A stretch of 64,000 nucleotides of DNA, taken from the NCBI RefSeq assembly GCF_054482595.1, contig NZ_CM137008.1; one strand, 5' to 3'. This document shows positions 39,001-42,000 of the stretch, piece by piece. Each line of letters opens with the position of its first letter. Position 1 is the stretch's first letter. A program made the position numbers.

Positions 39001-42000
39001 GGCATCAGACAGGAGAAAGTGAGTGAGTTCCATGCTTGAGATTTTTTTCCCGCTTTGCGCCTCCGACACCATCCGCTGGCAGCGCCGTACACCCGACGTG
39101 GAGCACGGTATCTGGCCTGACGTTGCTGACGAACGTCTCCAGCAATGGCTGCAAACTGATGCGATTCGACTCTACATTCCCGGCGAATGGATCAGCGTCT
39201 GGCAGGTTGAACTGCCTGATATCCCCCGCAAGCAGATACCGACTATTCTGCCCGCCTTACTGGAAGAGGAGCTGAACCAGGATATCGACGAACTGCATTT
39301 TGCCGCGTTGAAAATCGACCAGCAACAGGCAACCGTGGCAGTGATTCACCAGCAGCATATGCGCAACATTGCGCAGTGGTTGCAGGCAAACGGCATCACC
39401 CGCGCCACCGTTGCACCGGACTGGATGTCCATGCCTTGTGGTTATATGGCTGGCGATGCACAGCGAATTATTTGCCGCATCGATGAATGCCGTGGATGGA
39501 GCGCCGGGCTGGCGCTGGCTCCGGTCATGTTCCGCGCCCAGCTCAATGAGCAGGATTTACCGCTTTCGCTAACTGTAGTCGGCATTGCACCGGAAGAACT
39601 ATCAGCATGGGCTGGCGCAGACGCTGAACGCCTGACCGTTACGGCTCTGCCAGCCATTACCACTTATGGCGAACCGGAAGGGAACCTGCTAACAGGGCCG
39701 TGGCAGCCTCGCGTCAGCTACCGAAAACAGTGGGCGCGCTGGCGAGTGATGATTCTGCCGATATTGCTGATTCTGGTTGCGCTGGCAGTGGAACGGGGCG
39801 TGACGTTATGGAGCGTCAGCGAACAGGTGGCGCAAAGCCGCGACCAGGCTGAGAAACAGTTCTTAACGTTGTTCCCGGAGCAGAAGCGGATTGTGAATTT
39901 ACGCTCTCAGGTGACGATGGCGCTGAAAAAATATCGCCCACAGGCCGACGATACCCGGCTGCTCGCCGAGTTGTCAGCGATAGCCAGCACCCTGAAATCA
40001 GCGTCACTTTCCGACATCGAAATGTGTGGTTTCACCTTTGATCAAAAACGCCAGACGCTTCACCTCCAGTTGCGGGCAGCAAACTTTGCCAGTTTCGACA
40101 AACTGCGTAGTGCACTGGCAACCGATTATGTTGTGCAACAGGACGCGTTACAGAAAGAGGGTGATGCGGTTTCCGGCGGCGTAATGTTGCGGAGGAAATA
40201 ACATGTTACGCGATAAATTTATTCACTATTTTCAGCAATGGCGTGAACGCCAGTTAAGCCGTGGCGAACACTGGCTGGCACAACACCTGGCGGGGCGTTC
40301 TCCGCGTGAAAAGGGCATGTTACTGGCAGCGGTGGTGTTCCTGTTTAGCGTCGGATATTACGTCCTCATCTGGCAGCCGTTGAGCGAACGGATAGAACAA
40401 CAGGAGACGATGTTGCAGCAGCTGGTGGCAATGAACACCCGACTGAAGAACGCCGCGCCGGATATTATTGCAGCGCGAAAATCTGCCACAACAACGCCTG
40501 CGCAGGTATCGCGGGTCATCAGTGACAGTGCTTCCGCGCACTCGGTGGTCATCAGGCGGATAGCCGAGCGTGGGGAGAATATTCAGGTCTGGATAGAACC
40601 TGTGGTGTTTAATGACCTGCTGAAATGGTTAAACGCACTGGATGAAAAATATGCGCTGCGGGTGACACAAATTGATGTCAGTGCTGCTGAGAAGCCTGGG
40701 ATGGTGAATGTGCAGCGGCTGGAGTTTGGACGGGGGTAAAGTATCAGGAGATTAATATCAATAAAATTACTCTCGTTAACGTGGCGAGAGTAATTCCCCC
40801 AGACTTTATAAGCTAATTTTTTTCGTGAAGGTTATTGTCAGATCCAAAAGCAAAAACCCGCCTTGTGGGCGGGTTCTTAAGAATTAGTGGTGCCGGACTC
40901 GGAATCGAAGATTTCTTTTATCATATTGATATTAATATAATTTGTTTGGTTTGATTAAAAATGTACCCTCAATTATACCCGCAGTCCCTTTTGATATCGA
41001 AAGGGAATCACACTCGGGATCAGGCTGAGAGCACAGAAGGAAAGTGCCTGGCTATTATATCGTTAATTCTGTCAATCAGCTCCAGCCTTTTGAAAGTGAT
41101 GTGTGCAGATCCCTTCTTAAAGTATTTAATGATGAACATCTCATCTTCATAGCGTCCTTTACCCTGAACGGATTGTATGTGGTCATCCAGATTAATGGTG
41201 ATATTCCCCCGGTTGTCGGGGATCGGTTTACCGCTGAGCAGATGCAACATTCTTTCCAGGTCAGCCAGGCGATCTGCCTGCATTCCACTGATAAGATGAA
41301 ATCCCCACTGGTCCCACCTCACCAGATTGTTGACGATAATTTTACTGCCAAATTTACAGGGTGAGTTGGTTTTGTAATCCCAGCTCAGCCCTTTGAAGAC
41401 GTTGAGCACTCCCCGCTCAAACACTTCATCCTTATTCTGGTGCAGTTGTTCAAATGTGCTCAGAATGTTCGCTTCACTGATTTCCGGAAAATTATCATAT
41501 TCCAGTGACCTGTACCATGTGTCCCGGGTCTGCGCATCCATCAGACTCTGCATCCCGGAACGTTGCATCAGGTCACGCCAGATTTCGCGATCGAGATTGC
41601 GTGTGATGGCTTTCATTGCGGTTTCCGGTTTCTCCATCAGCCAGCAGCCGCAGCGAAAATCCTGTTTCATCGCCCAGTCCAGGGCGGTTTTACCTCCAAT
41701 ACTTTCTGTCAGTACTGAGATTTCTGCCAGTTGCCGGATAAGTGTGTCGATTTGCAGCAGCGCACTCTTTCGTACAGCCAGAATGTGGCGGATACTGGTT
41801 GAGCAGATAACGTCCGTATGCCCGTTGACCAGTTCCGGGCGGGAGATTGTGATATCTGACATCATCGTTTTTCCTTTTGGTTTATAAACGAAAACGCCAG
41901 CCGTATTCAGGCTGGCGTCAGTGGAATGAAGTCTGGTGAGTGAGATTCACCGGTTCTGGTGCAGAAGCGGCAGTTGGCGCAGGGTATGGATATCCTCCCT

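What the first reader, a model, noticed from the sequence alone, without database searches (positions are those of the whole stretch)
40845..40909. Island boundary: 22-nt pheV 3'-end direct repeat next to a terminator hairpin
Immediately after the T2SS operon the sequence tggtgccggactcggaatcgaa is a one-gap copy of the reverse-complemented tRNA-Phe 3' end; beyond it the similarity to the tRNA stops. This is the signature of the distal attachment-site repeat of an element integrated into pheV on the minus strand. The intact tRNA and integrase should lie beyond coordinate 64000. The adjacent hairpin reads as the ancestral pheV terminator now displaced from its tRNA.
Basis: partly seen in the sequence, partly recalled or inferred. 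Interest (0 to 1): 0.5.

Follow-up and report, generated by a model that had tools for sequence, protein, structure and literature searches.

The report
Known pheV genomic-island end repeat (attR)
The 22-base stretch is the already published, slightly imperfect end repeat (attR) left where a large genomic island sits in the E. coli tRNA-Phe gene pheV, next to the old pheV terminator; it is real but ordinary, present in about a quarter of complete E. coli genomes.

Summary
Observation confirmed. Window 40888-40909 (tggtgccggactcggaatcgaa) is the reverse complement of the last 23 nt of tRNA-Phe, minus one C of the CCC run. The window is identical to island-free K-12 from yghD (gspM) through the hairpin into these bases. 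Homology stops exactly after ...GGAATCGAA, the start of the T-loop.

To the right lies island DNA, a CP4-like flu/yee module. It is about 100% identical to an 82.5-kb island in strain GTEN_97.

The window holds no tRNA or integrase, and its own genome was not found. In proxy genomes with this junction or island, a P4-type integrase and an intact tRNA-Phe lie 82-84 kb away.

The same attR, deletion included (TTCGATTCCGAGTCCGG-CACCA), is listed for many strains in PLoS Genet 2024 (PMC11537424). At least 80% of a 141-nt junction query matches in 1,427 of 5,426 complete E. coli genomes. The feature is therefore already known and of low interest.

Two caveats apply. The partner tRNA may be pheU (an inversion, as in GTEN_97), or another island may intervene (a tandem array, as in LR14).

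One side inference: the missing C travels with the island end in three different flank contexts. This suggests it belongs to the island's attP arm and that strand exchange occurs in the last about 7 nt of the tRNA gene.

The parts
40203..40739 (+). yghD (gspM), the last gene of the T2SS-beta operon. It is chromosomal backbone flanking the pheV locus.
   Evidence: ORF. Identical to the K-12 yghD 3' end. Annotated as yghD/GspM in LWY24 and LR14 at the homologous position.
40765..40795 (+). Perfect 11-bp stem hairpin just after the yghD stop. It is backbone, conserved in K-12, and may be the T2SS operon's own terminator or stabiliser.
   Evidence: Inverted repeat I1. Folds at -16.1 kcal/mol, z -5.2. 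Identical in K-12.
40852..40878 (-). Intrinsic-terminator-like hairpin (CCCGCC/GGCGGG core, followed by TTTTTGCTTTT on the minus strand). It is the ancestral pheV-proximal terminator, now separated from the tRNA by the island. It still faces the island's minus-strand genes.
   Evidence: Identical sequence and spacing 3' of pheV in K-12.
40888..40909 (-). attR core: 22 nt, equal to the last 23 nt of tRNA-Phe (T-loop 7 + T-stem 5 + acceptor 7 + ACCA 4) minus one base of the GGG/CCC run.
   Evidence: Published as TTCGATTCCGAGTCCGG-CACCA in Table 1 of PMC11537424.
40910..64000 (.). Distal 23 kb of the genomic island, which runs off the window. It contains no integrase and no tRNA.
   Evidence: Window 40840-57625 matches GTEN_97 with 1 mismatch in 16,786 nt, and 59730-64000 is 100% identical. 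GTEN_97 annotation is. tRNA scan is.
41020..41862 (-). DUF4942 protein gene, the last gene of the island. It is transcribed toward the repeat and hairpin.
   Evidence: ORF. RefSeq annotation of the identical sequence in GTEN_97, LWY24 and LR14, mapped.
41947..46689 (-). The 'yee' module: DUF957, DUF5983, CbtA toxin (42641-43018), CbeA antitoxin (43108-43476), a hypothetical protein, DUF987, RadC/JAB (44479-44955), antirestriction protein (44971-45456), DUF932 and DUF905.
   Evidence: GTEN_97 annotation transferred with offset +36586. ORFs.
46760..49606 (-). Ag43/Cah autotransporter adhesin gene (the 'flu' module).
49625..49861 (-). IS102 RNA (Rfam RF00124), lying between the flu gene and the YeeP-like GTPase gene.
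   Evidence: 74.6 bits; gathering threshold 46.
49978..50850 (-). GTPase family (YeeP-like) gene, the start of the CP4-like backbone module.
58399..59729 (.). IS3-family insertion sequence inside the island. It sits at a different position and orientation than in GTEN_97 and LR14.
   Evidence: rearranged HSPs. IS3 family transposase annotations.

Best explanation
Window 40888-40909 is the distal attachment-site repeat (attR) of a large genomic island of the GI-pheV type, integrated into the 3' end of a tRNA-Phe gene at the pheV locus. The gene lies on the minus strand of the window.

Mechanism. A P4-family tyrosine integrase recombined the island's attP with the last 23 nt of the tRNA gene (attB). 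The island's attP carries an imperfect copy of that tRNA 3' end. Integration leaves an intact tRNA next to the integrase at the far end. It leaves a partial copy here, still attached to the original pheV terminator hairpin and the yghD/T2SS backbone.

Shown: the repeat, its exact breakpoint against K-12, the identity of the hairpin, the island gene content, and the published identity of the attR.

Shown only in proxy genomes: the integrase and the intact tRNA-Phe 82-84 kb away.

Inferred: the single missing C is part of the island-borne attP arm rather than decay of the chromosomal fragment. That would place strand exchange within the terminal about 7 nt (GGCACCA) of the tRNA gene. The displaced hairpin now terminates read-through from the island's minus-strand genes instead of pheV. 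The next att core in this genome is expected roughly 59 kb beyond the window end.
For: - The 22-mer and its uniqueness.
- Base-for-base identity with K-12 from yghD through the hairpin into pheV, with the breakpoint at the T-loop boundary.
- Terminator-like hairpin on the tRNA strand.
- Island genes immediately to the right (flu/yee CP4-like module).
- LWY24 has the same junction (100% over 141 nt). Its far end is integrase 4005796-4006980, tRNA-Phe 4007157-4007232, then yqgA-yqgH-speC.
- GTEN_97, with a 100%-identical island, has an integrase and an intact tRNA-Phe 82,512 bp from the repeat.
- That integrase has Arm-DNA-bind_3, Phage_int_M and Phage_integrase domains.
- The identical attR with the deletion is listed for APEC O1, S88, ED1a, H10407, 12009, CB9615, 55989, 042, 536, REL606 and others.
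- The junction is present (>=80% of 141 nt) in 1,427 of 5,426 complete genomes.
- Excision of PAI V536, a pheV island with this attR, is reported.
- For the attP-arm inference, the deltaC core fused to the same island end occurs with three different left flanks. These are the pheV terminator (window, LWY24, GTEN_97), another island's integrase flank (LR14 and 8 other genomes), and the pheU 3' flank (strains 165 and B-2207; 1,257 genomes >=80% coverage). All full tRNA copies examined are perfect.
Against: - The window contains neither the integrase nor the intact tRNA, and the source genome could not be found. The second repeat copy is therefore not demonstrated for this genome.
- The partner could be pheU rather than pheV (GTEN_97), or it could be separated by further islands (LR14).
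- There is no clear GC-content step at the boundary.
- The attP-arm / terminal-crossover inference conflicts with the usual description of the distal copy as a displaced chromosomal fragment, with crossover at the T-loop or the T/acceptor junction (Islander paper). It rests on six sequenced junctions plus coverage-based censuses that did not verify the deletion in every genome.
Confidence: 0.93

Rival explanations
1. This is the same island boundary, but the 22-mer is the displaced chromosomal 3' fragment of pheV, with crossover at the T-loop or the T/acceptor-stem junction. On this view the missing C is a later mutation in a now useless remnant, possibly one that stabilises the island.
For: [quoted passage not shown] The 23-nt block starts exactly at the T-loop. 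The 2024 paper discusses mismatched repeats as stabilising.
Against: The same deletion is fused to the same island end behind three unrelated left flanks, at pheV, at pheU and inside a tandem array. With an internal crossover, the deletion would stay in the chromosome and could not move with the island. It would then have to arise independently each time. In LR14, neither order of integration reproduces the observed CCC/deltaC pattern with an internal crossover.
Confidence: 0.3
2. The repeat marks the pheV-locus end of an island whose other end is not at pheV. The intact partner would be pheU after an inversion between Phe-tRNA islands, or the nearest integrase would be followed by another partial core and further islands in a tandem array.
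For: GTEN_97's island is identical to the window's (1 mismatch in 16.8 kb). It runs from the pheV hairpin to a tRNA-Phe flanked by dicD-dsbD-cutA, which is the K-12 pheU flank. LR14 has at least three islands in tandem, and island A's integrase is followed by TGGTGCCCGGACTCGGAAT-GAA and another yee module.
Against: LWY24, with the identical T2SS-hairpin-repeat junction, ends at true pheV next to yqgA. The window's left flank lacks the kps locus of GTEN_97, so the genomes differ. This rival changes the island's far end, not the nature of the 22-mer.
Confidence: 0.3
3. pheV was simply truncated by an unrelated insertion or deletion (for example IS-mediated). The 22-mer would then be a dead gene fragment with no second copy and no site-specific integration.
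For: No second copy is visible in the window. IS elements are present in the island.
Against: The breakpoint is exactly the recurrent 23-nt att core boundary, shared by hundreds of genomes and by islands at pheU. No IS end abuts the repeat. Every proxy with this junction has an integrase plus tRNA-Phe or a further core.
Confidence: 0.03
4. The 22-mer is a chance resemblance to tRNA-Phe.
For: None.
Against: The expectation is about 1e-6 per window, and there were 0 hits in 50 shuffles. The position is exactly where pheV lies in K-12.
Confidence: 0.001

Closest known systems
GI-pheV of E. coli and its '23-bp imperfect attR' (PLoS Genet 2024, PMC11537424)
   Same: The repeat sequence is identical, including the one-base deletion (TTCGATTCCGAGTCCGG-CACCA). 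The position is the same, at the K-12 backbone boundary. The flu and yee modules sit at the distal end. The size is comparable: islands with an attR average 75 kb in the paper, and the proxies here are 82-84 kb.
   Different: Nothing differs in the repeat itself. The integrase allele (intP4.1-5) and the complete cargo of this genome's island are unknown because they lie outside the window. The proxies carry cit/acnB, malX, yjhGHI and mtnAK cargo.
PAI V536 of UPEC 536 and, from memory, the she PAI of Shigella flexneri; both are pheV islands
   Same: These are pheV-integrated islands bounded by the tRNA and a ~22-23-bp imperfect repeat. Strain 536 has this same attR, and PAI V536 excises by site-specific recombination (citing Hochhut 2006).
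   Different: The cargo differs (K15 capsule and pix in 536; pic/set and sigA in she). The statement about she is my recollection and was not checked here.
CP4-type cryptic prophages of K-12 (CP4-44, CP4-6, CP4-57)
   Same: They share the backbone module at the integrase-distal end: YeeP-like GTPase, IS102 RNA, flu (Ag43), antirestriction, RadC, and the CbeA/CbtA toxin-antitoxin pair.
   Different: As far as I recall, they are integrated at other sites (thrW, ssrA, or no tRNA for CP4-44). Their att cores are different.
Satellite phage P4 integration at leuX, the prototype of the integrase family
   Same: It uses a tyrosine integrase with an arm-binding N-terminal domain. The target is the 3' end of a tRNA gene, and the ~20-nt core is duplicated (established knowledge).
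   Different: The target tRNA is different. P4 is a small phage satellite rather than an 80-kb mosaic island. No sequence comparison with P4 Int was made here.
Islander-type tRNA islands and tandem arrays (PMC4383910)
   Same: An intact tDNA plus a tDNA fragment in the same orientation delimit the island. In tandem arrays each island has its own fragment and integrase, as seen in LR14.
   Different: Islander treats the fragment as displaced host DNA. Here the fragment's defect appears to be island-borne.

Membership tests
tRNA-integrated genomic island GI-pheV (P4-type integrase island) | A partial direct repeat of the tRNA-Phe 3' end (attR) at the island boundary, in the tRNA's orientation | tested here: met
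   22 of 23 nt at 40888-40909 on the minus strand.
tRNA-integrated genomic island GI-pheV (P4-type integrase island) | The boundary coincides with the synteny breakpoint against an island-free genome at the pheV locus | tested here: met
   The window is identical to K-12 from yghD to ...GGAATCGAA and unrelated afterwards. Many genomes carry the hairpin plus an intact tRNA-Phe, which is the empty site.
tRNA-integrated genomic island GI-pheV (P4-type integrase island) | The attR sequence matches a catalogued GI-pheV attR | tested here: met
   It is the exact reverse complement of TTCGATTCCGAGTCCGG-CACCA in Table 1 of PMC11537424.
tRNA-integrated genomic island GI-pheV (P4-type integrase island) | An intact tRNA-Phe at the other end (attL) | not testable with these tools
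   There is no tRNA in the window, and the source genome was not found. The feature is met in the proxies LWY24 and GTEN_97 (pheU flank).
tRNA-integrated genomic island GI-pheV (P4-type integrase island) | An intP4-type tyrosine integrase gene immediately 3' of the tRNA | not testable with these tools
   No integrase is present in window 40910-64000. In the proxies, the integrase lies 177-198 nt from the tRNA and has Arm-DNA-bind_3, Phage_int_M and Phage_integrase domains.
tRNA-integrated genomic island GI-pheV (P4-type integrase island) | flu / yee (CP4-44-like) modules at the integrase-distal end | tested here: met
   DUF4942 through YeeP-like GTPase at 41020-50850, and IS102 RNA.
tRNA-integrated genomic island GI-pheV (P4-type integrase island) | Ability to excise, giving a circular attP form and a healed attB | not testable with these tools
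   This needs PCR or long-read data. The literature reports excision for PAI V536, which has the same attR.
Rho-independent (intrinsic) terminator of pheV | A G+C-rich stem-loop followed by a U-tract on the transcribed (tRNA) strand | tested here: met
   On the minus strand: 12-pair stem, 5-nt loop, then TTTTTGCTTTT, -19.5 kcal/mol, z -3.6. The plus strand is weaker: -15.2 kcal/mol, z -1.5, with a poor U-tract.
Rho-independent (intrinsic) terminator of pheV | Located directly 3' of pheV in an island-free genome | tested here: met
   K-12 has the same hairpin, with 9 nt between the CCA end and the extended stem.
Rho-independent (intrinsic) terminator of pheV | Demonstrated transcription termination | not testable with these tools
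   No transcript data are available.

The most novel reading that the evidence does not exclude
The one-base deletion is not decay of a displaced host fragment. It is a heritable feature of the island's own attP arm. The same deltaC core is fused to the same island end behind the pheV terminator, behind the pheU 3' flank and behind another island's integrase. The strand exchange of these Phe-tRNA islands must therefore occur within the last about 7 nt (GGCACCA) of the tRNA gene. Most of the 'tRNA fragment' at attR would then be island DNA that mimics the tRNA, probably as an integrase core-binding site. That would refine how attR variants are read, as lineage markers of island ends rather than as stabilising mutations. 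It would also refine how island-finding tools model crossover sites.
Probability: 0.5. Interest if true: 0.3.

Novelty: already known. Interest (0 to 1): 0.1.

Why it matters
The finding correctly places the right-hand border of a large, probably virulence- or fitness-associated island, so it is useful for annotating this window. Everything from 40910 to at least 64000 is island DNA, and everything left of 40888 is core chromosome. It adds no new biology: the pheV hotspot, the P4-type integrase mechanism and this exact imperfect attR are all published. The only modest added value is comparative evidence that the imperfection is carried by the island. That bears on where these integrases cut, and on interpreting attR variants as markers of island lineage.

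Tried and rejected
- Finding the window's own genome to read past 64000. Four megablast searches of 5,426 complete E. coli genomes gave no collinear match above about 96% across T2SS, junction and island. An exact 48-nt junction scan of the species-representative genome collection gave 0 hits.
- Looking for a second att copy or any tRNA inside the window. ARAGORN found none, and Rfam gathering found only C0719 and IS102. Fuzzy searches found only the 22-mer itself, plus a 5-edit match at 45184-45203 inside the antirestriction gene, which I treat as chance.
- Looking for an RNA family at the junction. Permissive Rfam hits all fell far below gathering scores.
- Looking for a promoter that would make the remnant a small RNA. 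One minus-strand match at 41000-40972 was found against 1.4 expected by chance, which is not evidence.
- Looking for a compositional step at the boundary. GC dips to 0.45 in the intergenic region, but the island module (0.51-0.58) resembles the T2SS (0.52-0.59), so this is not informative.
- Reading Williams 2002 (NAR 30:866) on crossover sublocations. The paper is not held, so I used the Islander paper's summary instead.
- Assuming GTEN_97's far end would be pheV. I rejected this after the K-12 comparison showed a pheU flank.
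Full report
**Observation**

The string tggtgccggactcggaatcgaa lies at window 40888-40909. E. coli tRNA-Phe ends in TTCGATTCCGAGTCCGGGCACCA. The window sequence is its reverse complement with one C of the CCC run missing.

A fuzzy search of both strands of the 64-kb window finds only this copy. Fifty shuffles gave no hit with <=1 edit, and the analytic expectation is about 1e-6. The 15-mer GGACTCGGAATCGAA is unique in the window. ARAGORN finds no tRNA gene in the window. Rfam finds only the C0719 and IS102 RNAs.

**Comparison with the empty site**

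In K-12 MG1655, pheV (3110366-3110441, + strand) is followed by yghD on the opposite strand. I aligned window 40700-40960 with the reverse complement of that K-12 stretch.

Every base is identical from the end of yghD, across the intergenic region and the hairpin, into the last 23 nt of pheV. The one exception is the missing C. Similarity then ends abruptly after ...GGAATCGAA, where the tRNA would continue CCAAGGACACGG.

The 23-nt block is exactly T-loop (7) + 3' T-stem (5) + 3' acceptor strand (7) + ACCA (4). The 22-mer therefore sits precisely where pheV should be and is cut at a structurally meaningful point.

**The hairpin**

The arms are at 40852-40862 and 40868-40878.
- On the minus strand (the tRNA strand) it folds at -19.5 kcal/mol (z -3.6). 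It is followed by UUUUUGCUUUU and is the only terminator-like site the scan reports in the region.
- On the plus strand it is weaker (-15.2 kcal/mol, z -1.5) and has a poor U-tract.

It is base-for-base the K-12 hairpin 3' of pheV. Calling it the ancestral pheV terminator, now displaced, is justified by sequence, although termination itself is not demonstrated.

All the island's terminal genes are on the minus strand and point at the hairpin. It is therefore now positioned to stop read-through from the island into the T2SS operon (inference).

A second, perfect 11-bp hairpin at 40765-40795, just after the yghD stop, is also conserved in K-12.

**What lies to the right**

Window 40840-57625 matches strain GTEN_97 with one mismatch in 16,786 nt, and 59730-64000 is 100% identical. 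One IS3-family copy (58399-59729) sits elsewhere in GTEN_97.

Transferring the RefSeq annotation gives this gene order:
- DUF4942 (41020-41862), DUF957 and DUF5983
- CbtA and CbeA
- DUF987, RadC/JAB, an antirestriction protein, DUF932 and DUF905
- Ag43 (46760-49606)
- the IS102 RNA
- a YeeP-like GTPase

This is the CP4-44-like 'flu/yee' module. No integrase is present in this part.

**Beyond the window (proxies only)**

The window's own genome is not among 5,426 complete RefSeq E. coli genomes. The best collinear match across T2SS, junction and island is about 96%. An exact 48-nt junction scan of the species-representative genomes found nothing.

Three proxies were followed:

1. LWY24 has the identical junction (100% over 141 nt; 99.7% over 2 kb). 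Its island runs 83.7 kb to a tyrosine integrase (4005796-4006980) and an intact tRNA-Phe (4007157-4007232). The K-12 pheV upstream flank yqgA-yqgH-speC follows.

2. GTEN_97 has the identical island. An integrase and an intact tRNA-Phe lie 82,512 bp from the repeat. The integrase has Arm-DNA-bind_3, Phage_int_M and Phage_integrase domains. However, this tRNA is flanked by dicD-dsbD-cutA, which in K-12 is the pheU flank. The repeat end carries the pheV hairpin next to the kps locus. That genome therefore has an inversion between the two Phe-tRNA loci.

3. LR14's island is 99.8% identical, and the locus is a tandem array. Its order is:
   - yghD, the hairpin and the core TGGTGCCCGGACTCGGAATCata
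   - a 23-kb defence-like island
   - a frameshifted integrase
   - the deltaC core
   - this island (83.8 kb) and its integrase
   - an island-borne hairpin
   - the core TGGTGCCCGGACTCGGAAT-GAA
   - a third island

**Literature**

The PLoS Genetics 2024 study of GI-pheV lists the attR TTCGATTCCGAGTCCGG-CACCA. This is exactly the window's 22-mer, deletion included. It is given for APEC O1, S88, ED1a, H10407, 12009, CB9615, 55989, the O104:H4 outbreak strains, 042, 536, 11128, REL606 and others.

The paper calls it a 23-bp imperfect attR. It describes flu and yee modules at the distal end and the intP4 integrase as the only conserved gene.

A review reports site-specific excision of PAI V536. 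The Islander paper states the general principle of a regenerated tDNA plus a fragment, and describes tandem arrays.

My own census finds >=80% of the 141-nt junction in 1,427 of 5,426 complete genomes. The feature is thus real, correctly interpreted and already known.

**A side inference**

The deltaC core fused to the same island end (gatttcttttatc... or a close variant) occurs behind three unrelated left flanks:
- the pheV terminator, in the window, LWY24 and GTEN_97
- another island's integrase flank, in LR14 (9 genomes by coverage)
- the pheU 3' flank, in strains 165 and B-2207 (1,257 genomes by coverage)

All full tRNA copies examined are perfect.

Suppose crossover were at the T-loop or the T/acceptor junction, as usually assumed. 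The deletion would then remain in the chromosome and could not accompany the island. In LR14, neither order of integration would give the observed pattern: CCC next to the terminator, deltaC next to this island.

The simplest reading is that the deletion belongs to the island's attP arm and that strand exchange occurs within TGGTGCC (GGCACCA in the tRNA sense). I rate this about 0.5-0.6. It rests on six read junctions, and the censuses did not verify the deletion genome by genome.

**Verdict**

The exceptions are the parts that need sequence beyond the window. There the partner tRNA may be pheV, may be pheU after an inversion, or may be reached only after further tandem islands. Novelty: already known. 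Interest: low.

Noticed in passing
L001/L004 (NZ_CP113493.1, GTEN_97) 835302-917911: This is the same island as in the window. One end carries the pheV hairpin next to kpsF and an IS110 fragment. The other end carries a tRNA-Phe flanked by dicD-dsbD-cutA, the K-12 pheU flank. This implies a large chromosomal inversion between the pheV and pheU islands.
   Followed up: partly
L008/L003/L009 (NZ_CM188746.1, LR14) 804313-923000: The pheV locus holds a tandem array of at least three islands. Each has its own imperfect tRNA-Phe core: ...AATCata, deltaC and ...AAT-GAA. Each also has its own integrase, one of them frameshifted. The first island (23 kb) carries defence-like genes (DEAD/DEAH helicase, TerB, AbiEii toxin, AAA ATPase).
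   Followed up: partly
L007 (K-12) 3191-3626; L004 36791-36835; L009 39050-39107: The 3' flank of pheU in K-12 is a hairpin (aaaaacggacctccgtggaggtccgtt) plus the yjdQ integrase remnant. It is the same sequence as the integrase-proximal flank of the window's island type. K-12's 'native' pheU terminator is therefore island-derived, and such islands bring a replacement terminator for the tRNA.
   Followed up: partly
window 40765-40795: A perfect 11-bp stem with a 9-nt loop lies right after the yghD stop (-16.1 kcal/mol, z -5.2). It is conserved in K-12 and has no U-tract. It may be an mRNA-stabilising or terminator element of the T2SS operon.
   Followed up: partly
window 58399-59729: An IS3-family element occupies a different position and orientation than in the otherwise identical islands of GTEN_97 and LR14. 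This suggests recent transposition within the island.
   Followed up: partly
window 40972-41000 (minus strand): A sigma-70-like match (TCGATA-17-TATAAT) sits between the DUF4942 gene and the repeat and points through the tRNA remnant to the hairpin. The scan found one site where 1.4 are expected by chance, so there is no evidence of function.
   Followed up: no
window 21485-21706 and 49625-49861: Rfam hits to C0719 sRNA (299 bits) in the glc region and to IS102 RNA (74.6 bits) between flu/Ag43 and the YeeP-like GTPase gene.
   Followed up: no
window 40839/40840: Homology with kps-positive GTEN_97 starts 12 nt left of the hairpin. In capsule-group-2 strains the kps locus, with an IS110 fragment, is inserted between the pheV terminator and yghD. 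The window's genome lacks kps yet carries an island identical to that of a kps-positive strain, which suggests recent horizontal movement of the island.
   Followed up: partly
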